The notes below the pieces were generated by a model. It was given only the letters and a program-made list of their open reading frames with translations. It made no database searches and was not told where the DNA came from. From a phage: 64,000 bases of DNA. Where the stretch lies: sequence record PZ445488.1. The stretch is one strand, 5' to 3'. The translations under genes and the position numbers were made by a program. Positions 5,128-50,938 of this stretch are shown one piece after another (within the stretch, counting starts at the first letter, position 1; every line of letters begins with the position of its first letter).

Positions 5128-7839
5128 TCAAAAATCGAACATATCGAACAGAGATGCTTTCTTCTCGTAATCGAGTTTCGCTGCTGATGTGAATCCTTCA
5201 AGTGGTTTAATAAATGTCTTCTCAAGGAGAACAGTGTAGTCCATCCAATGAAGTACGTCGTCTTTAATTAAATCTGTGATTTCAGTACCAGAAGGCCATG
5301 CGATACATTTATCACCGAATGGGTTTCCATCACGTAAAGGCAGAACGTATACCTTTTCGCCTTCTACAACTTGTGGAGCATCAATATTACCTTTGATAGC
5401 TCTGTTATATGTCAGAATTCCACGAATATGGAACGGGCATTTAGGACCAGGGAATCCACCAACGTCATATTTAGCAATGTTATTCGCAGAAGATACCGAC
5501 GCGATGCTAATATAATTCAATTGACGGAATTCTTTTTCAAACTCTTTAAAATATTCTTGTAATGATTCTTCACCTTCTTGAAGCATACGACGAATACATT
5601 CTTTAAGAGCTTTCTGTACTGCTTTAGGGGTCGAAGATTTCTGTGTTTCGAGACCCATGATTTTGAGTTTAGGCTCAGCGTATCTGGTTCCTTCCATATC
5701 CCACACGTTTAATGCATAACGTTTCTTACCAGTCCAGAATCCACCAATACCTTTAGAACCGAGTGGAGGACCAGCAATAGCTTCTCGGTCCATGAACATC
5801 AAATGTTGCTTATTATTCATGTATTCACACATTTCACGGAAACCTCTATCAATAGCCGGTTCCATACGTTCACGAGCAAACTTATCTAAGAAGTCTACCC
5901 AATGGTTGGTATCACGGAATTTAGATTCACCAACCTTATCGATAATTTTATCAGCAGATACGTAAATAGAGTCTGTATCACCATAAAGAACGAAAGCTTC
6001 ACCTTCTGTACCACAAACTTCATTCAGATATTCATTAACTTTACGTTCAATCCACTGTAAAGCCATTTGCCCGAATGTTGTGATTGCAGTAGCATTACGC
6101 AAATCATAATAACGGAACCAAACGTTACCAAGTGCACCATAAAGCGAGTTGATGAGCAATTTACGGTTAATTTGTGCAGTCATACCTGCAACTTCAGTAC
6201 GTTGAGCTCTAAACAACATTTCATTAAGAGATTTAGCAGACAACTTTTTAATCTTTTCTTTAATCTCGTCAGTGAAGTCGAAACGATAATCAACATCTAA
6301 TGGTTCGTCAACAGAAAGATTAGGATTATGTAACGCCTCTTTAATTATTTCACCATTACGTTGAGCCGCAAGCATATAACCTTTATGTTCTTTACGTTGA
6401 TTAAAGACCTTAGTGATTTCAGTTGGAACTACACCATCACGGTCTTTATAATACATCATGCCGTTAGGAGAGCAACTGTACACATCTGAAGGACGTTCAG
6501 CGATTGCGTTAATATAATCATGCAATGGAGCTACTTTAAACGTTCCTGCTATTGTTTCTGGGCTAATATTCACTTGGCGAATAATACTTGGATACAGAGA
6601 TGTAAGGTCGAAACTCATTACATATTTGTATCGATTTGGAATAGGTTCCTTAACAAAAGCGCCAGGATAAGGTTGAACCGGGTGAGAACGACCTTGTGGA
6701 ATCACCTTGTTCTGCTCTTTAAGGCTATTAAAAATAATAGCATCCCATGTTTTAATTGGGCTGAACACAGATTGAATCTGTATCTTAGCATAATAACCCA
6801 TGTCCAAACTCAAGTTGATGAACTGGCGCTTAGCATCAATTTGCAATACACGATACACGTCGATAATGTTATAAGAAATATATCGTTGGTGATTGCTTTC
6901 ACGAAGCTTAGAAATAGGGCCGTCATATTTCAGTTTACCGACATTCAATTCAAATTCTGAAATGTAATCCAGAGAATACGACGGTTGGTTTGTGAAAGAG
7001 AATTTTTTGTAAAGGTCAATGTAATCAAGAACAGAAATACCGAACAATGTAATGATTTCACGAGAACCATACATGTTTTCGATAACTTTAACACGAGTTT
7101 TACGATGTGGTGATAAACGTTTCGCAGTAGATTCGCCAAAAATATTCTTGATTCGGTTATACACATATGGAATATCAAATGACTCAACGTTCCATCCGGT
7201 TAAAATGACAGGAGTTTTCTGTTGCCAGAAGTTGAGATATTCCATCAACAATTCTTTTTCGTTATCGAACGGCATATAAATGATTTTATCGATAATTTCG
7301 GATGGAACTTCATCACCACCTTGTTCTTGAAGCTTAGCCGCAATTTCGATAGACCATTCTTCTACATTACCATATGGAGAATTCAAAAGGTCGAATACGT
7401 AGAACCTGTCGTCAATTGAGTCATAATGGGTGATAGCATCAATCGGATGTTTTGCTTGTGACGGCTCAGGGAACCCATCCGGAGATGTTACTTCGATATC
7501 GAAGTTAGCCACACGAATTTTTGTATGGTCGTATTTGATTTCATAGTTATAAGTGTCAGACAAATACGACAATTTGAAATCGTCCATACCTAATGCTTCA
7601 AGACCGATATCTTCCATGCGTTTAATCCATTGGGAGGCATCACGCATATTAGCGAACAACTTACGAGTACACGGCTTACCGTAGATATCGAAATATTTCG
7701 TAGCCTGACTTTCTGGACAATGAGCAAACAATGATGGTTTATATTCTACTTCACGAGTACGTTCACGGCCATTAGAATCGATGTAACGTTCAAAAATTGA
7801 ATCACCAATCTGTTCAACCGTTAAGTAAAATTCTTTCAT
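5128..7839 (-). CDS. 43: DNA polymerase gp43 (family B, with 3'-5' exonuclease)
   Basis: 903 aa; N-terminus MKEFYLTVEQIGDSIFERYIDSNGRE and motifs YGDTDS and KILLNSLYG-like match the T4/RB69 polymerase (RB69 gp43 is 903 aa, from memory); ATG at 7839. Confidence 0.97.
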   Translation of the reverse strand: MKEFYLTVEQIGDSIFERYIDSNGRERTREVEYKPSLFAHCPESQATKYFDIYGKPCTRKLFANMRDASQWIKRMEDIGLEALGMDDFKLSYLSDTYNYEIKYDHTKIRVANFDIEVTSPDGFPEPSQAKHPIDAITHYDSIDDRFYVFDLLNSPYGNVEEWSIEIAAKLQEQGGDEVPSEIIDKIIYMPFDNEKELLMEYLNFWQQKTPVILTGWNVESFDIPYVYNRIKNIFGESTAKRLSPHRKTRVKVIENMYGSREIITLFGISVLDYIDLYKKFSFTNQPSYSLDYISEFELNVGKLKYDGPISKLRESNHQRYISYNIIDVYRVLQIDAKRQFINLSLDMGYYAKIQIQSVFSPIKTWDAIIFNSLKEQNKVIPQGRSHPVQPYPGAFVKEPIPNRYKYVMSFDLTSLYPSIIRQVNISPETIAGTFKVAPLHDYINAIAERPSDVYSCSPNGMMYYKDRDGVVPTEITKVFNQRKEHKGYMLAAQRNGEIIKEALHNPNLSVDEPLDVDYRFDFTDEIKEKIKKLSAKSLNEMLFRAQRTEVAGMTAQINRKLLINSLYGALGNVWFRYYDLRNATAITTFGQMALQWIERKVNEYLNEVCGTEGEAFVLYGDTDSIYVSADKIIDKVGESKFRDTNHWVDFLDKFARERMEPAIDRGFREMCEYMNNKQHLMFMDREAIAGPPLGSKGIGGFWTGKKRYALNVWDMEGTRYAEPKLKIMGLETQKSSTPKAVQKALKECIRRMLQEGEESLQEYFKEFEKEFRQLNYISIASVSSANNIAKYDVGGFPGPKCPFHIRGILTYNRAIKGNIDAPQVVEGEKVYVLPLRDGNPFGDKCIAWPSGTEITDLIKDDVLHWMDYTVLLEKTFIKPLEGFTSAAKLDYEKKASLFDMFDF

Positions 7840-30673: not shown

Positions 30674-31143
30674 TTAGCCTTATATTCAAGAGTAGGACAG
30701 ACTTTTTCTTTACGAGCTTTAAGGTATTCACCTATTAATGATTTCTTACGTTCAATAGGCTCAAGTCCATTTTTAATTCGTTCTTGGTTTTGCGCAATGA
30801 GCTCAATTTCTTTATAATATTTTCTGTCGTTATATTTGTCTAACAACCAAGACGGACCAATTACCAACCCGGTAGCAATAAAAGCCATGACTGCTACAAT
30901 TAAAATGCCTACACCAATTGAGGCTGGAACTAATGTCCATAGACTGCTAAAAACAAAGAATTTAGTTAAAATTTCCTGGCCAATGATTGTGACTGCTGCT
31001 AAAATCGCAAATCCAATAATTGAAACAGCCAATACCGGGATTAACGTTTTCCAAAAATAAGCACATAATGTTTTCGGACGATTCCACGTACTATTGAACG
31101 CGGCATAAATTTTAAAGTGCCAAGAGTTTTCATTGATAATCAT
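30670..31143 (-). CDS. integral membrane protein (157 aa)
   Basis: ORF track; several hydrophobic segments. Confidence 0.5.
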   Translation of the reverse strand: MIINENSWHFKIYAAFNSTWNRPKTLCAYFWKTLIPVLAVSIIGFAILAAVTIIGQEILTKFFVFSSLWTLVPASIGVGILIVAVMAFIATGLVIGPSWLLDKYNDRKYYKEIELIAQNQERIKNGLEPIERKKSLIGEYLKARKEKVCPTLEYKAK

Positions 31144-31152
31144 AATAATTCC

Positions 31153-31683
31153 TTATTTCAAAGTCGGGATAATAGAATCGAGATAAGCTTTAAGAGCAAC
31201 TGCTTCATCTTTGTCTAATGTAACGATATGTTGACGAAGGTCATCAATTTGGCGAATAACTACGACATCACCGTCTTCATAAGAAGGATTAACGCCTAGG
31301 ACCGTTGTATAGTCAGGGCGGTCCTGATTTGTAATAAAAGCATTACGGCATTTAGCCCATTGAAGTTTGGCTTTTTTGACTGTTTCAGATTCCATGAATT
31401 CTTTCACCTTAGTGACAAATGTTTTCCAATTATTAATAGAAAAACATTTGTCTTCAGTTTCGATATTAACCCCACTATAAAGTCCGTGATAAAAACGAAC
31501 TTGAAGGTCTTCATCAATGTTAATTACAGATGCATGGCCGGGTGGATTGAGTTTCAAAATCTTGTCCAGTTCCATAGGAAGAATAGTAACAGCATCATCT
31601 TCTTGTGTCAGAACGTAAGCATAACCACGTTTTTCGATACATAAATCACCAAACAACTCGGTTGTTTCAATTACAATTTTCAT
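31153..31683 (-). CDS. hypothetical protein
   Basis: ORF track frame from ATG 31683 (MKIVIETT...); the track start 31695 is TTG. Confidence 0.55.
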   Translation of the reverse strand: MKIVIETTELFGDLCIEKRGYAYVLTQEDDAVTILPMELDKILKLNPPGHASVINIDEDLQVRFYHGLYSGVNIETEDKCFSINNWKTFVTKVKEFMESETVKKAKLQWAKCRNAFITNQDRPDYTTVLGVNPSYEDGDVVVIRQIDDLRQHIVTLDKDEAVALKAYLDSIIPTLK

Positions 31684-31684
31684 A

Positions 31685-31864
31685 TTATTCACCAATTAAA
31701 GTTTCAACAAAATTCACCAAAGCATTCTGGCACGCATCAACCTGATTTTCATAAAAGTCTCCGTTATCATTTACCGCGTGATAAGCTACATCATTCAAAT
31801 CTGAATCGGCTTCACGTAGGTCACGGATAAGGCCCATCAATTTATTAGCTTGTTCACGGGTCAT
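31685..31864 (-). CDS. small protein (59 aa), paralog of the 32243..32422 product
   Basis: Hand-translated MTREQANKLMGLIRDLREADSDLNDVAYHAV...; shares its N-terminal pattern with MTRKEKISKLMFLIEEYANS...; below the ORF-track cutoff. Confidence 0.4.
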   Translation of the reverse strand: MTREQANKLMGLIRDLREADSDLNDVAYHAVNDNGDFYENQVDACQNALVNFVETLIGE

Positions 31865-31999
31865 TTTACCATACTCGTTTCAATAAGATTCACTATGCCG
31901 TTTACCATGTTATAAGTAAACATCGGATAATTGTATTGTACTACAACATAAGCGATAAGCAAAAGTTTCATTTTGTTCTCCGTTCATTTTGGTAGGACT

Positions 32000-32029
32000 A
32001 CTATAACATAATCCTACCAAGATGTAAAC
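32000..32029 (-). promoter_or_regulatory. early promoter (GTTTAC, 18 bp, TATAGT) inside palindrome GGTAGGA/TCCTACC
   Basis: Minus strand reads GTTTACatcttggtaggattatgtTATAGTagtcctacc. Confidence 0.45.
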
Positions 32030-32235
32030 TACCGATTGTGTTTTAAATGTTGATAAAGTTCTTCAACTTGTTTTGGGTCCAAAACAATTAGATCATTTTC
32101 TTGACGAAGATAAATCCATCCCTTATCCCCAGGGCCATTTTTACAAAACATCACCACCATATCATCATCTTCAGCGCTTTCAGGTAAAAGTTCAAGTACA
32201 CCGTCTTCAGATTTTCCAGTATAATCGTAAAGCAT
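32029..32235 (-). CDS. hypothetical acidic protein (68 aa)
   Basis: ORF track frame started at ATG 32235 (GAGGA 6 nt upstream). Confidence 0.45.
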   Translation of the reverse strand: MLYDYTGKSEDGVLELLPESAEDDDMVVMFCKNGPGDKGWIYLRQENDLIVLDPKQVEELYQHLKHNR

Positions 32236-32242
32236 AATGTCC

Positions 32243-32422
32243 TCACATAATCTCGTTAACATACATTTGCAATTCGGTGTGGGCGTCGGCCATCTTTTTC
32301 ATAGCTCTGTTAATGTCGATGTCTCCATCTTCGCAACCATGAGCATTTTCCCAATCGGATACAGAATTAGCATACTCTTCAATCAAAAACATCAACTTAG
32401 AAATCTTTTCTTTACGTGTCAT
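32243..32422 (-). CDS. small protein (59 aa)
   Basis: ORF track frame started at ATG 32422 (AGAGGAGAA RBS); the track start lies inside the promoter element. Confidence 0.45.
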   Translation of the reverse strand: MTRKEKISKLMFLIEEYANSVSDWENAHGCEDGDIDINRAMKKMADAHTELQMYVNEIM

Positions 32423-32449
32423 AACGTTCTCCTCTAGTAAGTAAGGACT

Positions 32450-32478
32450 ACTATAACACAACCTGAGGAGAAGTAAAC
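32450..32478 (-). promoter_or_regulatory. early promoter (GTTTAC, 17 bp, TATAGT)
   Basis: Minus strand reads GTTTACttctcctcaggttgtgtTATAGTagtcc. Confidence 0.45.
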
Positions 32479-32489
32479 TGATAGATGCC

Positions 32490-32516
32490 AAAAAGCCCCA
32501 ACCATAAGGAAGGGGC
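32490..32516 (-). terminator. rho-independent terminator (GCCCC-UUCCUUAUGGUU-GGGGC + U5)
   Basis: 3' of rI; its stem is nearly identical to the terminator at 47968..47995. Confidence 0.6.
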
Positions 32517-32523
32517 TAGTAAA

Positions 32524-32826
32524 TTAGATAGATGTAGGCTCTAATTTTATTTTCATGAACTCAGCAAATTGTCTGGCAGTTTTTATGCCTTGTTCATGAC
32601 ATTCAAATGCATCATCACAGGGGCTATTTTTGTAATGCTTTGCCATATACTTATAGAATTTTTCAGAATTCTCGACATTTTGAATTTCAAACAAAGTATA
32701 TACGTTTTTAATCCCTGATTCCATAAAGTTATCAAAATATGGGTCAATATGTGCAGTACCAACGATAGGAGTTGTTGCTGCAAAAAACCCCAGCATCGCT
32801 ATGACAGCTATCGCTCTTAAGGCCAT
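32524..32826 (-). CDS. rI: lysis-inhibition regulator RI (antiholin)
   Basis: MALRAIAVIAMLGFFAATTP...DPYFDNFMESGIKNVYTLFE resembles T4 RI (signal-anchor plus periplasmic domain); lies next to tk as in T4. Confidence 0.85.
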   Translation of the reverse strand: MALRAIAVIAMLGFFAATTPIVGTAHIDPYFDNFMESGIKNVYTLFEIQNVENSEKFYKYMAKHYKNSPCDDAFECHEQGIKTARQFAEFMKIKLEPTSI

Positions 32827-32838
32827 ATAGGCCTCCTG

Positions 32839-33051
32839 TTAATTTTGGCCAGTATTTATTTTTCGCCTTTGGACGGCCTTAACATCTGCGAGGTATTTTT
32901 CCAGCTTGCGCTTGCGTGTATAATCAGCTTTAGAACCGGTTTGACGGATATCCTCGTTTAAATGAGAAATAGAATGTCCTAATTCTCTTCGGATTTCGTC
33001 CAATTGGGTTACAGTAAGATTACGAAGTTGTCTTTCGTTTAATTGCTGCAT
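32839..33051 (-). CDS. hypothetical protein (70 aa)
   Basis: ORF track; ATG 33051 with AAGAGG RBS. Confidence 0.5.
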
Positions 33052-33075
33052 ATATACCTCTTGGTTAGATATTAG

Positions 33076-33083
33076 TATTTATA
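33076..33083 (-). promoter_or_regulatory. late promoter motif TATAAATA (minus strand)
   Basis: Exact octamer 25 nt upstream of the 33051 ATG, overlapping the tk stop. Confidence 0.4.
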
Positions 33084-33660
33084 ACAACCCTGTCAAATCA
33101 TTCCAATGCTTCCGGCATAATGACACGTATCTATCGGTATCACCAATTTCAATTTGACTGCCATCTGTAATTGGAAGTCCGTCTTCCGTGACTCTAGCTA
33201 CCATTGTGGCCTTTTTACCGCAATGACAGACACCTTTAAGTTCAACAAGCTTATCGGCAATAGCCATTAATGCTTGAGAACCTTCAAATAGATTACCTTT
33301 AAAATCTGTTCGTAGTCCATATGCCATTACTGGCACATTGTATACGTCAACAATACGACTAAGTTGATACACCTTTTCAGTAGTTAAGAACTGAGCTTCG
33401 TCAACAAATACACAGTGAATATCCTTTTGTGCTGCAGCCCATTTATAGAATTCAAAGATATCCATGTCTTTTGTAATTATATTGGCATCCTGACGAATAC
33501 CAATACGAGAGACTATTTCACCTTTTGAATCACGAGTATCAATAGCCGGTTTAAGAACTAATACACCCATGCCACGTTCTTTATAGTTATGTGCGGCAGT
33601 AAGTAATGAAGCAGACTTACCAGCGTTCATAGCGGCATAGGTAAAAATTAAACTAGCCAT
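33079..33660 (-). CDS. tk: thymidine kinase
   Basis: 193 aa; P-loop AAMNAGKS and zinc-ribbon cysteines (CHCGKKA...CRKHW). Confidence 0.93.
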   Translation of the reverse strand: MASLIFTYAAMNAGKSASLLTAAHNYKERGMGVLVLKPAIDTRDSKGEIVSRIGIRQDANIITKDMDIFEFYKWAAAQKDIHCVFVDEAQFLTTEKVYQLSRIVDVYNVPVMAYGLRTDFKGNLFEGSQALMAIADKLVELKGVCHCGKKATMVARVTEDGLPITDGSQIEIGDTDRYVSLCRKHWNDLTGLL

Positions 33661-33850
33661 AAGAGTCCTTAGTTAAATTTTCTAAATATGTTTCTAAATC
33701 ATTTTCAGCTTTATTGATAGATTTTACTAATTCGTAATATGTTTCGGCATCTCCATATTCAGAAGATATTTCAAAAGACAAATCCTTTTCTAAACTAATA
33801 ATTTCACCAACTAAAAATAATATTTCGTTCTTTTGTTCGCGAGTAATCAT
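33653..33850 (-). CDS. small acidic protein (65 aa)
   Basis: ORF track; paralog-like to the adjacent 63-aa ORF. Confidence 0.45.
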   Translation of the reverse strand: MITREQKNEILFLVGEIISLEKDLSFEISSEYGDAETYYELVKSINKAENDLETYLENLTKDSYG

Positions 33851-34038
33851 AAGGAATTTATATAATTAATAAGTTCTTGTTCTTTATTATCGAATTCTTT
33901 AGAAAGTTCTTCGTACTCGTTTTCACTAAAAGGACCGCATTCATTACAAACTTTTTCCAATTCACTATTTTTATCCATAACTTCGTGGATAAGAGAAAAG
34001 AGTTTGTCTTTTTGTTCTTTACTTAAACTCATAACCAT
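33847..34038 (-). CDS. small acidic protein (63 aa)
   Basis: ORF track. Confidence 0.45.
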   Translation of the reverse strand: MVMSLSKEQKDKLFSLIHEVMDKNSELEKVCNECGPFSENEYEELSKEFDNKEQELINYINSL

Positions 34039-41968: not shown

Positions 41969-41997
41969 AATATTCTCCTCATGTTTTAATAGGACTA

Positions 41998-42026
41998 CTA
42001 TAACATAGTCCTATCAGTTTGTACAC
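41998..42026 (-). promoter_or_regulatory. early promoter (GTGTAC, 17 bp, TTATAG) within palindrome ATAGGACTA/TAGTCCTAT
   Basis: Minus strand reads GTGTACaaactgataggactatgTTATAGtagtcctat. Confidence 0.45.
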
Positions 42027-43532: not shown

Positions 43533-43561
43533 TGTGGACTCCATTTGTTTTGATAGGACTA

Positions 43562-43590
43562 CTATAACATAGCCCTATCTTGTTGTAAAC
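43562..43590 (-). promoter_or_regulatory. early promoter (GTTTAC, 17 bp, TTATAG) within GATAGG-CTA palindrome
   Basis: Minus strand reads GTTTACaacaagatagggctatgTTATAGtagtcctatc. Confidence 0.45.
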
Positions 43591-46327: not shown

Positions 46328-46350
46328 ATTATTACCTTTCAATTGGTGGT

Positions 46351-46394
46351 TTATTATCCAACGAGAGCATTATACTCTGCTCTCAAGAGTTTGT
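46351..46394. repeat. 44-bp exact repeat, copy B (identical to 16940..16983)
   Basis: See copy A. Confidence 0.85.
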
Positions 46395-46397
46395 AAA
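46369..46397 (-). promoter_or_regulatory. early promoter (TTTACA, 17 bp, TATAAT) with the -10 between inverted GAGAGC/GCTCTC
   Basis: Minus strand reads TTTACAaactcttgagagcagagTATAATgctctcgttgg. Confidence 0.5.
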
Positions 46398-46625
46398 TTA
46401 TTTTTTAATCAAATTAACATAAAACTTGGCGTCTTCCGGGTGCATTCCTTCGCAGTATTCTTCAACCATGAACTTCTTAACAGCTTCATAAGGACCACTC
46501 AGATTAAGCTCAGTTGTCCAGAACTTGGAATCTTGTACTGAATCGATACGAACTTCAGGGTGACGGTTGCGAATAACTTCTTCTGTGTATTCATAATCAA
46601 CGACATCAATACTAACTTTAGCCAT
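46398..46625 (-). CDS. hypothetical protein (75 aa)
   Basis: ORF track; ATG 46625 with AGAGGAGAAAC RBS. Confidence 0.45.
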   Translation of the reverse strand: MAKVSIDVVDYEYTEEVIRNRHPEVRIDSVQDSKFWTTELNLSGPYEAVKKFMVEEYCEGMHPEDAKFYVNLIKK

Positions 46626-50273: not shown

Positions 50274-50289
50274 TTGATTTGATAGGACT

Positions 50290-50316
50290 ACTATAACATA
50301 GTCCTATCATGTAAAC
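50290..50316 (-). promoter_or_regulatory. promoter-like element (GTTTAC, short 14-15-bp spacer, TATAGT) in palindrome GATAGGACTA/TAGTCCTATC
   Basis: Same element family as 50618..50647, but the spacer is about 3 bp shorter; probably weak or inactive. Confidence 0.3.
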
Positions 50317-50318
50317 TA

Positions 50319-50582
50319 TTAAATACCAGCTTCGCGTTTAACATAATCGACGTAAGCTTGGATAGCTTTCTTGCTGGTAATTTTTACCTGGCCTCGTCCG
50401 TTGCCTTCTTTAGAGTTTTTCTTAACAACTACATTACCATCTTTAACACCCCATACATGGACATAAGTACCGATGTTTCGGTCGTAGAACATTGCATGGT
50501 CGTTGTTGTAAGAGAATGATTCGTAGTTCTCTGACAGAGTAGAAGATTGAGATTCAGCGATAAATTCTTTATAGGTTTTCAT
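50319..50582 (-). CDS. internal-protein-like capsid-targeted protein (ipI class by position)
   Basis: 87 aa; N-terminus MKTYKEFIAE is a near-exact match to the T4 internal-protein leader; next to 57B as T4 ipI is. Confidence 0.55.
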   Translation of the reverse strand: MKTYKEFIAESQSSTLSENYESFSYNNDHAMFYDRNIGTYVHVWGVKDGNVVVKKNSKEGNGRGQVKITSKKAIQAYVDYVKREAGI

Positions 50583-50617
50583 TTGTTTTTCCGTTTGGTT
50601 GTTGATTTGATAGGACT

Positions 50618-50647
50618 ACTATAACATAGTCCTATCAGCATGTAAAC
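50618..50647 (-). promoter_or_regulatory. early promoter (GTTTAC, 18 bp, TATAGT) in palindrome GATAGGACTA/TAGTCCTATC
   Basis: Minus strand reads GTTTACatgctgataggactatgtTATAGTagtcctatc. Confidence 0.45.
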
Positions 50648-50650
50648 TAC

Positions 50651-50938
50651 TTACAGAAGAGTTTTTGCAATAATTTTAAGCTGAGCTACAGAAATATGCT
50701 TAGCTTTAAACAGTGCGGTCTCTTCGGCCGGAGAGATAACAACAGTAGCGCCATCTTTCTTAGCAGACCATCCGTCCCCTAAGTAAACAGTACCTTTTAC
50801 TTCTTCACCATCAACCAGACTAATCATCGGTTTACCCTCACGTCCTTTATTTGCTTTAATAACTTCGGAAGTAAGGGTTGCTTCGGTCAGAGTAGAAACG
50901 TTAGCAACAGGTGATATAAATTCTTTATAGGTTTTCAT
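50651..50938 (-). CDS. internal-protein-like capsid-targeted protein (second tandem copy)
   Basis: 95 aa; N-terminus MKTYKEFISP. Confidence 0.55.
   Translation of the reverse strand: MKTYKEFISPVANVSTLTEATLTSEVIKANKGREGKPMISLVDGEEVKGTVYLGDGWSAKKDGATVVISPAEETALFKAKHISVAQLKIIAKTLL

What the first reader, a model, noticed from the sequence alone, without database searches (positions are those of the whole stretch)
31685..32478. Tandem duplication of a promoter + small-ORF cassette next to rI
Two adjacent units each consist of a palindromic early promoter (32000..32029 and 32450..32478) followed by a 59-aa ORF with a related N-terminus (MTREQANKLMGLI... and MTRKEKISKLMFLI...). The first unit also has a 36-aa hydrophobic micro-ORF (31861..31971). 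This looks like cassette duplication followed by divergence.
Basis: seen in the sequence. Interest (0 to 1): 0.45.

Follow-up and report, generated by a model that had tools for sequence, protein, structure and literature searches.

The report
Two old paralogues, not a fresh duplication
Next to the lysis-inhibition gene rI of a T4-like (RB69-group) coliphage lie two short early operons, each carrying one copy of a small acidic protein family (Pfam DUF7438) behind a T4-type early promoter; the copies are ancient paralogues and the promoters are known "PeSL" regulatory cassettes, so the arrangement is ordinary for this kind of phage.

Summary
The ORFs, the micro-ORF and both early promoters are at the stated coordinates, on the minus strand. 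The two 59-aa proteins are homologous along their whole length. Both match Pfam DUF7438 (E 1.8e-14 and 5.4e-16), and a profile-profile comparison gives E 5e-6, although pairwise BLASTP does not (E 0.22).

A tandem duplication of a promoter-plus-ORF cassette is not supported:
- The units differ in anatomy: P-B-DUF7189 versus P-mobD.2-A-mobD.1.
- The only DNA similarity is a 15-nt promoter core, which occurs six times in the window.
- A and B are the least similar pair among four DUF7438 copies here; the other two are the tk.1 and tk.2 orthologues.
- B has orthologues at the same position in Tequatrovirus; T4 mobD.2a is a frameshifted remnant. One Tequatrovirus, PhiZZ23, has a weaker A counterpart.

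The micro-ORF is the T4 mobD.2 orthologue. Only the unit-1 promoter is truly palindromic: a 12-bp stem around the -10 box (z -7.1) with four compensatory pairs between genera. This is the "-10-overlapping" subclass of PeSL cassettes described by Arbiol et al. 2010. The function of DUF7438, a predicted Rop-like helical hairpin restricted to T4-like phages, remains unknown.

Verdict: a real but ordinary feature of a hyperplastic region.

The parts
32524..32826 (-). rI antiholin gene; upstream neighbour in the direction of transcription
   Evidence: Pfam Antiholin E 2.9e-24 and PHROG 'lysis inhibition'. 52% identical to T4 rI.
32490..32517 (-). Intrinsic terminator after rI (AGCCCC..GGGGCU followed by UUUUU); the stem-loop part of the unit-2 PeSL
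   Evidence: RNA fold -15.8 kcal/mol, z -2.5. The same 28-nt element flanks an insertion in phage LF82-8 as a direct repeat.
32450..32478 (-). Early promoter of unit 2 (GTTTAC-N17-TG-TATAGT); SD GAGGAG at 32434..32429
   Evidence: Promoter and leader are homologous to the T4 mobD.5 promoter and leader. No significant hairpin of its own.
32243..32422 (-). ORF B, 59 aa, DUF7438; orthologue of the intact form of T4 mobD.2a
   Evidence: Pfam PF24219 E 5.4e-16. 44-46% identical to the 57-aa gene at the same position in PhiZZ23 and EcNP1. dN/dS 0.05-0.06. Found in 640 phage records.
32029..32235 (-). DUF7189 gene, 68 aa from the ATG at 32235 (the mechanical ORF starts at 32262); second gene of unit 2
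   Evidence: Pfam PF23819 E 3e-30 over residues 10-77. Annotated as 207 nt in relatives. dN/dS 0.04-0.09.
32000..32029 (-). Early promoter of unit 1 (GTTTAC-N18-TG-TATAGT); the -35 box overlaps the stop codon of the DUF7189 gene
   Evidence: Orthologous to the T4 promoter upstream of mobD.2.
31989..32020 (-). 12-bp inverted repeat (TTGGTAGGATTA / TAGTCCTACCAA) enclosing the TGn and -10 box; a PeSL stem-loop of the '-10-overlapping' subclass
   Evidence: -18.3 kcal/mol, z -7.1. Across 11 orthologous sequences 99.2% of cells are paired and 4 pairs show compensatory changes; slid controls give 25-66%.
31861..31971 (-). 36-aa micro-ORF; orthologue of T4 mobD.2; its stop overlaps the start of A (ATGA)
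   Evidence: phrog_3515 E 1e-20. 65% identical to T4 MobD.2, with QYNYPMFTYN conserved. dN/dS against T4 is 0.08.
31685..31864 (-). ORF A, 59 aa, DUF7438
   Evidence: Pfam PF24219 E 1.8e-14. AlphaFold2 predicts a helical hairpin, pLDDT 83. dN/dS 0.04-0.16. A positional counterpart exists in PhiZZ23; it is absent from T4 and EcNP1.
31153..31683 (-). mobD.1 (y05I)-like gene; third gene of unit 1, starting 1 nt after the stop of A
   Evidence: Pfam T4_y05I_N E 2.2e-41 and T4_y05I_C E 1.5e-19.
33653..33850 (-). Third DUF7438 copy; T4 tk.1 orthologue
   Evidence: Pfam E 1.9e-14. 120 bits against T4 Tk.1.
33847..34038 (-). Fourth DUF7438 copy; T4 tk.2 orthologue
   Evidence: Pfam E 8.4e-19. 119 bits against T4 Tk.2.
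41990..42005 (-). Further copy of the promoter core TGTTATAGTAGTCCTA, with a 12-bp hairpin
   Evidence: z -5.6.
43554..43569 (-). Further copy of the promoter core, with hairpin
   Evidence: z -6.5.
50283..50298 (-). Further copy of the promoter core, with hairpin
   Evidence: z -6.3.
50611..50626 (-). Further copy of the promoter core, with hairpin
   Evidence: z -6.8.

Best explanation
The segment is part of the rI-to-nrdC.11 hyperplastic region of a Mosigvirus (RB69-group T4-like phage). It is 100% identical to a fragment of Escherichia phage CEV1.

It holds two back-to-back early transcription units on the minus strand:
- Unit 2: rI terminator, early promoter, B (DUF7438), then a DUF7189 gene.
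- Unit 1: an early promoter whose -10 box sits inside a 12-bp hairpin, then the mobD.2 microprotein, A (DUF7438), mobD.1-like and onward. The three genes overlap or abut (ATGA overlap, then a 1-nt gap), so they are probably translationally coupled.

A and B are old, separately conserved paralogues of a small family. The family consists of acidic proteins of about 60 aa, predicted to form a helical hairpin. It has four copies in this window and five in T4, clustered on both sides of tk-rI.

The promoters resemble each other because both belong to a repeated class of composite promoter/stem-loop cassettes (PeSLs; Arbiol 2010, Comeau 2014). PeSLs are thought to supply recombination points for swapping small early ORFs. 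The resemblance does not come from copying the pair as one unit.

Shown here: the anatomy, the homology, the orthology, the repeat family and the base-pair covariation.

Inferred:
- The hairpin acts as an attenuator or structural element in RNA read through from upstream, while transcripts started at the nested promoter lack the 5' arm.
- DUF7438 proteins are non-essential early binders or inhibitors of host or defence proteins that diversify by paralogy.
For: - Identity of the phage and annotation of neighbours.
- Family membership of A, B, C and D.
- Full-length homology of A and B.
- A/B is the weakest pair, and the NJ tree shows separate clades for B, mobD.3, mobD.4, tk.1, tk.2 and Mosigvirus A.
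- Positional counterparts in Tequatrovirus, and T4 mobD.2a as a frameshifted B.
- DNA similarity limited to the 15-nt promoter core.
- The 16-mer core occurs 5 times exactly and once with 1 mismatch; 0.6 matches are expected even at 3 or fewer mismatches.
- Hairpin statistics and covariation.
- PeSL definition, including stem-loops overlapping the -10 box, and demonstrated terminator and promoter activity: PMC2839356 section 14; PMC4122927.
- Cassette turnover at this very locus:
  - LF82-8 has an insertion flanked by a 28-nt terminator repeat.
  - The same promoter and leader drive B here but mobD.5 in T4.
  - A is present or absent among Tequatroviruses.
  - tk.2::tk.1 chimeras exist.
- Purifying selection on all four small genes, dN/dS 0.04-0.16.
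- Narrow, never-fused family: 13 clusters among 1.84 billion representatives.
- Helical hairpin prediction and acidic net charge of -5 to -9.5.
Against: - No expression data were examined. Promoter activity, start sites and the role of the hairpin are inferred from sequence and from work on RB49/phi1.
- The hairpin has no U-tract, so classical intrinsic termination is not expected.
- The covariation comes essentially from two clades, so it reflects few independent events. One A.C mismatch (SHSML-52-1) occurs alongside several G.U intermediates.
- The deep branching of a 60-aa family is unreliable. The PhiZZ23 'A-type' gene did not cluster with Mosigvirus A in the NJ tree. Its assignment rests on position, a best hit of E 1e-5 and a shared C-terminus.
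- The proposed protein function has no direct support. Foldseek gave no significant match.
Confidence: 0.8

Rival explanations
1. One reading: a recent local tandem duplication copied promoter plus small ORF as one cassette, and the copies then diverged.
For: Two adjacent promoter-led units each contain a DUF7438 gene of exactly 59 aa with similar N-termini. The promoters share 15 identical bases.
Against: - There is no DNA similarity outside the promoter core. Aligned codons of A and B are 43% identical.
- The units have different gene content.
- A is closer to tk.1, tk.2 and mobD.4 than to B.
- B has a positional orthologue in Tequatrovirus, and A has a weaker positional counterpart in PhiZZ23.
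- The promoter core is a six-copy repeat.
- The core differs in the B promoter of sister Mosigviruses.
Confidence: 0.04
2. An ancient in-situ duplication of a promoter-plus-DUF7438 unit occurred before the genera split. Later insertions (DUF7189, mobD.2) and sequence decay erased the DNA trace.
For: - The family sits in tandem arrays: T4 mobD.4, mobD.3, mobD.2a; tk.2, tk.1.
- Recombination between adjacent copies is seen in chimeras P0013 and P0044.
- A and B are neighbours in both genera.
Against: - In the other arrays the copies are not each preceded by a promoter; one promoter serves mobD.5 to mobD.2a in T4.
- The unit-1 promoter directly precedes mobD.2, not A.
- The unit-2 promoter and leader are shared with T4 mobD.5, an unrelated ORF. 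Promoters and ORFs therefore assort independently.
Confidence: 0.15
3. The two ORFs are unrelated, and the N-terminal resemblance is chance or compositional.
For: Pairwise BLASTP E 0.22. tblastn with either protein does not find the other in the same genome.
Against: Both exceed the DUF7438 gathering score twofold over the full profile length. hhalign of the subfamily profiles gives E 5e-6 over 52 columns. C links both, with E 4e-6 to A and 0.004 to B.
Confidence: 0.02

Closest known systems
PeSL (promoter-early stem-loop) regulatory cassettes of T4-type phages (Arbiol et al. 2010, PMC2839356; Comeau et al. 2014, PMC4122927)
   Same: - A strong sigma70-type early promoter is combined with a stem-loop, ending in an SD and start codon.
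- It is repeated within the genome, in hyperplastic regions, next to small ORFs of unknown function.
- It is associated with indels between close relatives.
- The 2010 paper explicitly lists stem-loops overlapping the -10 box as a common subclass, as in unit 1, and stem-loops upstream of the -35, as in unit 2.
   Different: - PeSLs were described for RB49/phi1, PST/T4 and nt-1/KVP40. In the two PeSL papers read here the RB69-group (Mosigvirus) version, with arm GATAGGACTA, is not described.
- Activity and mini-circle formation are untested here.
- The two PeSLs of the finding share only 15 nt, which is short for homologous exchange.
Pfam DUF7438 (PF24219); T4 genes tk.1, tk.2, mobD.3, mobD.4, mobD.2a
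   Same: A and B match the family model end to end. They have the same size, the same acidic helical-hairpin character and the same genomic neighbourhood around tk-rI.
   Different: A-type has no intact T4 counterpart. B-type is intact here but frameshifted in T4. No member has a known function.
T4 nested-promoter/RNA-hairpin arrangements at genes e, soc, 49 and I-TevI (reviewed in PMC3014915)
   Same: A promoter lies inside the region encoding the 5' arm of a hairpin. Long read-through transcripts can therefore fold, while promoter-proximal transcripts cannot.
   Different: In those cases the promoter is a late promoter and the helix sequesters the SD or AUG. Here the promoter is early, and the 12-bp stem ends 8 nt upstream of the GGAG, leaving it unpaired.
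ColE1 Rop/Rom and phage DMS3 Aqs1 (small helical-hairpin proteins)
   Same: The predicted fold of A superposes on Rop over 55 residues (TM 0.86-0.90). Aqs1 is a 57-aa phage helical hairpin that inhibits host proteins.
   Different: Foldseek E is about 1 and sequence identity 11-27%. A helical hairpin is a generic shape, so this is not evidence of relatedness or of shared function.

Membership tests
Pfam DUF7438 (PF24219) | Score above the curated gathering threshold (25 bits) over the whole 57-position model | tested here: met
   A 54.3 bits (residues 1-56), B 59.1 bits (4-58), C 54.2 bits, D 68.1 bits.
Pfam DUF7438 (PF24219) | Stand-alone protein of about 60 aa in T4-like phages | tested here: met
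   All 46 hits and all 13 representative clusters are 37-65 aa, single-domain and from T4-like phages.
PeSL cassette | Sigma70-type early promoter (-35 and -10 boxes, 16-18 nt spacer) followed by an SD and start codon | tested here: met
   GTTTAC-N18-TATAGT..GGAG..ATG for unit 1 and GTTTAC-N17-TATAGT..GAGGAG..ATG for unit 2. Sequence match only.
PeSL cassette | Stable stem-loop adjacent to or overlapping the promoter | tested here: met
   Unit 1 has a 12-bp stem over the -10 box, z -7.1. Unit 2 has a terminator hairpin 12 nt upstream of the -35, z -2.5. The unit-2 promoter itself is not palindromic (z -1.24).
PeSL cassette | Repeated within the genome, concentrated in hyperplastic regions | tested here: met
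   Six copies of the 16-nt core in 64 kb, against 0.6 matches expected at 3 or fewer mismatches. About half of the strong minus-strand early promoters carry a stem in register or nearly so.
PeSL cassette | Association with insertions, deletions or replacements between close relatives | tested here: met
   LF82-8 has an insertion flanked by 28-nt stem-loop repeats. A is present or absent, and the same leader precedes different ORFs.
PeSL cassette | Promoter and terminator/attenuator activity in vivo; mini-circle formation | not testable with these tools
   Needs reporter assays, transcript mapping and inverse PCR.
'Helicase loader' (RefSeq/PHROG label on ORF A orthologues, phrog_4859) | Similarity to a known helicase-loader family (T4 gp59 or DnaC-type), or size and architecture compatible with one | tested here: not met
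   The Pfam scan at E up to 1 returns only DUF7438. The profile search of PDB sequences gives nothing relevant. The model is a 59-aa two-helix hairpin. The label appears to be propagated annotation.

The most novel reading that the evidence does not exclude
The DUF7438 array (A, B, tk.1, tk.2, mobD.3, mobD.4) may be a diversifying set of small acidic helical-hairpin inhibitors aimed at host or anti-phage-defence proteins. The PeSL cassettes around them, whose stems are kept by compensatory substitution and whose arm sequences are more alike within a genome than between genera (GATAGGACTA in this Mosigvirus, GACAAGAyTA in T4), would then be the recombination system that reshuffles this repertoire.
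Probability: 0.25. Interest if true: 0.5.

Novelty: new member of a known kind. Interest (0 to 1): 0.25.

Why it matters
The result mainly corrects an interpretation. What looked like a fresh cassette duplication is a pair of old paralogues in a curated family of unknown function, sitting behind known PeSL-type promoters.

It has three modest uses:
- It gives a clean orthology map for a poorly annotated stretch of T-even genomes: B is an intact mobD.2a, the micro-ORF is mobD.2, and A is lost in T4.
- It flags wrong product names in public records.
- It adds base-pair covariation evidence that the -10-overlapping PeSL stem is under selection.

The function of DUF7438 and the role of the stem remain open.

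Tried and rejected
- Pairwise BLASTP of A against B and tblastn of each protein are too insensitive for this family. Profiles were needed.
- The search for related loci with the mobD.1-like protein gave one locus. A degenerate micro-ORF pattern gave six. Diversity therefore came from the annotated phage collection.
- Rfam found nothing real; the single hit is a miRNA family at E 0.83.
- The PDB sequence profile search and Foldseek gave no significant relatives.
- Literature searches for DUF7438 and for the T4 gene names returned nothing relevant.
- The outer 8-bp inverted repeat TTCTCCTC/GAGGAGAA in unit 2 could mask the SD of B in read-through RNA. It was considered and set aside because the fold is no better than shuffles (z -1.24) and the 5' arm is not conserved in the homologous T4 leader.
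- The hairpin-in-promoter architecture at first looked new. It was rejected as novel after reading Arbiol 2010 section 14.
- A sequence-specific operator reading of the palindrome was rejected because arm sequences differ between promoters (TAGGACTA, GACAAGA, GAGAGC, AGGTCTA) while pairing is kept.

Full report
**What the window is.** Bases 31100-33700 are 100% identical to a fragment of Escherichia phage CEV1 and 97-98% identical to many Mosigvirus (RB69-group) genomes. In the RefSeq annotation of Shigella phage SHSML-52-1 the region reads, on the minus strand: tk, a hypothetical gene, rI, four small genes, a y05I-like gene, a membrane protein and a nucleotidyltransferase. All features discussed here are on the minus strand, so transcription runs from high to low coordinates.

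**Check of the observation.**
- A is 31685..31864, 59 aa.
- B is 32243..32422, 59 aa.
- The micro-ORF is 31861..31971, 36 aa.

Both promoter sites have the T4 early form:
- GTTTAC-N18-TGT-TATAGT at 32029..32000.
- GTTTAC-N17-TGT-TATAGT at 32478..32450.

All four small genes are under purifying selection among Mosigviruses, with dN/dS of 0.04-0.16. The micro-ORF against T4 gives 0.08. These are therefore real genes.

**Are the two small proteins related?** Pairwise BLASTP says no (E 0.22, and out of register). Profile methods say yes:
- Both match Pfam DUF7438 over the full 57-position model. A scores 54.3 bits (E 1.8e-14) and B 59.1 bits (E 5.4e-16), against a cut-off of 25 bits.
- Profiles of the A and B subfamilies align over 52 columns with hhalign E 5e-6.

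The homology is real and covers the full length.

**The family has more copies than two.**
- An HMM built from the copies finds a fourth member in the window. ORF C (33653..33850) and ORF D (33847..34038) are the orthologues of T4 tk.1 and tk.2, at 120 and 119 bits.
- In T4 the family comprises tk.1, tk.2, mobD.3, mobD.4 and a 38-aa mobD.2a.
- Among all pairs, A against B is the weakest (18.5 bits). A is closer to tk.2, tk.1 and mobD.4 (25-31 bits), and B is closest to T4 mobD.2a (30 bits).

**Synteny across genera.**
- Mosigviruses: rI, [terminator + promoter], B, DUF7189, [hairpin promoter], mobD.2, A, mobD.1.
- Tequatrovirus PhiZZ23: rI, rI.-1, [terminator + promoter], mobD.5, mobD.4, mobD.3, B-type (57 aa, 44% identical), [hairpin promoter], mobD.2, A-type (61 aa, 33% identical, same C-terminus ETLIG), mobD.1.
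- EcNP1 and T4 lack the A-type gene.
- In T4 the B-type gene carries a 1-nt deletion. This leaves mobD.2a (38 aa) plus a remnant ORF that encodes the B C-terminus.
- Dhakavirus and Gaprivervirus representatives have only a mobD.3-type copy and DUF7189 next to mobD.1.

B was therefore already a distinct gene at this map position before Mosigvirus and Tequatrovirus diverged. The same is likely for A, on weaker evidence. An NJ tree gives separate clades for B, mobD.3, mobD.4, tk.1, tk.2 and Mosigvirus A. The PhiZZ23 A-type gene did not join the Mosigvirus A clade, and deep nodes in a 60-aa family are not reliable.

tblastn finds B-type genes in 640 phage records, 485 of them at under 60% identity. 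It finds A-type genes in 155 records, always at one place per genome.

**Were the promoters copied with the ORFs?** No evidence supports this.
- The units are not collinear. The unit-1 promoter directly precedes the micro-ORF, not A.
- The micro-ORF is the orthologue of T4 mobD.2 (65% identity; phrog_3515 E 1e-20).
- At the DNA level the units share only TGTTATAGTAGTCCT. Codon-aligned A and B are 43% identical.
- That core occurs five times exactly and once with one mismatch in the window: at 31993, 32443, 41990, 43554, 50283 and 50611. Only 0.6 matches are expected even when up to three mismatches are allowed.
- In sister Mosigviruses the B promoter reads TATAGTAAACC or TATAGTAGACC, so the identity seen here is strain-specific.
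- The unit-2 terminator, promoter and leader (..GTTTACTT..AGAGGAGAAC..ATG) are homologous to those upstream of T4 mobD.5, an unrelated ORF.

Promoters and ORFs therefore assort independently.

**The 'palindromic promoter'.**
- Unit 1 has a 12-bp inverted repeat, 32020..32009 with 32000..31989. Its 8-nt loop is TGTTATAG, so the -10 box lies in the loop and the 3' arm. The fold is -18.3 kcal/mol with z -7.1.
- In 11 distinct orthologous sequences from two genera, 99.2% of cells pair. Four of the 12 pairs show compensatory double changes, and slid controls give 25-66% pairing.
- The unit-2 promoter region folds no better than shuffles (z -1.24). Its stem-loop is instead the rI terminator just upstream (32517..32490; -15.8 kcal/mol).
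- Stems in the same register occur at several other early promoters in the window, with at least four different arm sequences. They also occur at 3 of 16 candidate early promoters in 61 kb of T4.

This is not new. Arbiol et al. 2010 define PeSLs as composite early promoter plus stem-loop cassettes. [quoted passage not shown] They show terminator-like and promoter activity in reporters, and recombination between PeSLs (PMC2839356). Comeau et al. 2014 extend this to the T4/PST and KVP40/nt-1 pairs (PMC4122927).

**Evidence of cassette turnover at this locus.**
- Phage LF82-8 carries a roughly 620-bp insertion with a 185-aa ORF between rI and B. It is flanked by perfect 28-nt direct repeats of the rI terminator.
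- The A-type gene is present in PhiZZ23 but absent in EcNP1 and T4.
- Database proteins P0013 and P0044 are tk.2::tk.1 chimeras, the product expected from unequal recombination between adjacent paralogues.

**What the proteins might do.**
- The family is narrow and never fused to another domain. A profile search of 1.84 billion representatives returns 13 clusters, all 37-62 aa. A word-indexed search returns 46 proteins, all from T4-like phages.
- AlphaFold2 predicts a two-helix hairpin for A (helices 3-29 and 35-58; pLDDT 83).
- Foldseek against the PDB gives no significant hit. The best full-length superpositions are ColE1 Rop (TM 0.86-0.90, E about 1) and similar generic hairpins, including phage Aqs1.
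- All four copies are acidic, with net charge -5 to -9.5.
- No paper in the library mentions the family or these T4 genes.
- My working inference is that they are non-essential early proteins that bind host or defence proteins, possibly as dimeric four-helix bundles. This rests only on size, charge, timing and paralogue diversification, and my confidence is low.

**How the DNA element most likely works.**
- Shown by sequence: the promoter consensus, the stem, the covariation, and the tight packing of micro-ORF, A and mobD.1 (an ATGA overlap, then a 1-nt gap).
- Inferred from the PeSL work: the stem forms in RNA read through from unit 2, because no terminator separates the units, and attenuates or structures it.
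- Inferred from geometry: transcripts starting near 31993, inside the 3' arm, lack the 5' arm.
- This geometry parallels the nested late-promoter hairpins of T4 genes e, soc, 49 and I-TevI (PMC3014915). Here, however, the GGAG lies 8 nt downstream of the stem and is not sequestered.

**Verdict.** The paralogy is real. A recent tandem cassette duplication is not. The feature is a new member of known kinds (DUF7438 and PeSL) and is of low to moderate interest.

Noticed in passing
L002 (T4 NC_000866) 6050-6166 and downstream to about 5996, minus strand: T4 mobD.2a (38 aa) is the N-terminal half of a B-type DUF7438 gene. A 1-nt deletion relative to PhiZZ23 and EcNP1 shifts the frame, and a 33-aa remnant ORF still encodes the C-terminus (..KEEMKIMVDAHTKLQNFIENVI). 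T4 therefore carries a pseudogene where other T-evens have an intact 57-59-aa gene.
   Followed up: yes
L008 (phage LF82-8) 1544-1571 and 2167-2194: A roughly 620-bp insertion carrying a 185-aa ORF lies between rI and B. It is flanked by perfect 28-nt direct repeats of the rI terminator stem-loop, the signature expected of PeSL-mediated cassette insertion.
   Followed up: partly
proteins P0013 and P0044: These are chimeric DUF7438 proteins with a Tk.2 N-terminus and a Tk.1 C-terminus (for example in phage UFV-AREG1). This suggests unequal recombination between the adjacent paralogues that deletes one copy.
   Followed up: no
window 31685..31864 orthologues; T4 mobD.4 and mobD.1 orthologues in RefSeq records: Product names look like propagated errors. 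'Helicase loader' is given to the 59-aa DUF7438 protein (phrog_4859). 'Molybdopterin-guanine dinucleotide biosynthesis protein MobD' is given to T4 mobD.4 and to mobD.1 orthologues, apparently from the gene symbol mobD, which names a mobile endonuclease.
   Followed up: partly
window 50283..50298 and 50611..50626; ORFs 50319..50582 and 50651..50938 (minus strand): Two nearly identical promoter/hairpin copies of about 30 nt lie 328 nt apart and bracket an 87-aa ORF beginning MKTYKEFIAE. The next ORF also begins MKTYKEFI. From memory this resembles the N-terminal capsid-targeting sequence of T4 internal proteins, so these may be internal-protein gene cassettes separated by PeSLs.
   Followed up: no
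window about 46345..46400 (minus strand) versus T4 about 7191 (L018): The window promoter ATTTACaaactCTTGAGAGCagagTATAATGCTCTCGTTG is about 33/40 identical to the T4 promoter upstream of motB (..CTTGGGACCagagTATAATGGTCCCGTGG). It lies at a different map position, upstream of a 202-aa ORF. The stem keeps pairing through two compensatory changes.
   Followed up: partly
window copies at 41990, 43554, 50283, 50611 and 31993 versus T4 57966 and 20588: Hairpin arms are more alike within a genome than between genera: GATAGGACTA in this Mosigvirus and GACAAGAyTA in T4, upstream of mobD.2 and of dmd. This suggests concerted evolution or gene conversion of the repeated promoter element.
   Followed up: partly
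window 33653..34038 versus 32524..32826 and 31153..31683: The tk.1 and tk.2 orthologues are nearly identical to T4 (61/62 and 58/61 residues). Neighbouring rI is 52% identical to T4 and the mobD.1-like gene about 46% identical to Tequatrovirus orthologues. This mosaic pattern suggests recent exchange of the tk.1-tk.2 segment between genera. Mosigvirus ChristianSchoenbein has only one, divergent, tk.2-like copy.
   Followed up: no
L002 (T4) start of mobD.1, about 5829 minus strand: The first 12 or so codons of T4 mobD.1 (MMSEAKRLVLEV) align loosely with the 5' end of the A-type gene of PhiZZ23 (MTSEQAFKLRELIE). T4 may have lost A through a deletion that fused its start to mobD.1.
   Followed up: no
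window 32465..32472 and 32427..32434 (minus strand): An 8-bp perfect inverted repeat, TTCTCCTC / GAGGAGAA, would pair the promoter spacer with the SD of B in any RNA read through the rI terminator. The fold is not better than shuffles (z -1.24), and the 5' arm is not conserved in T4.
   Followed up: yes
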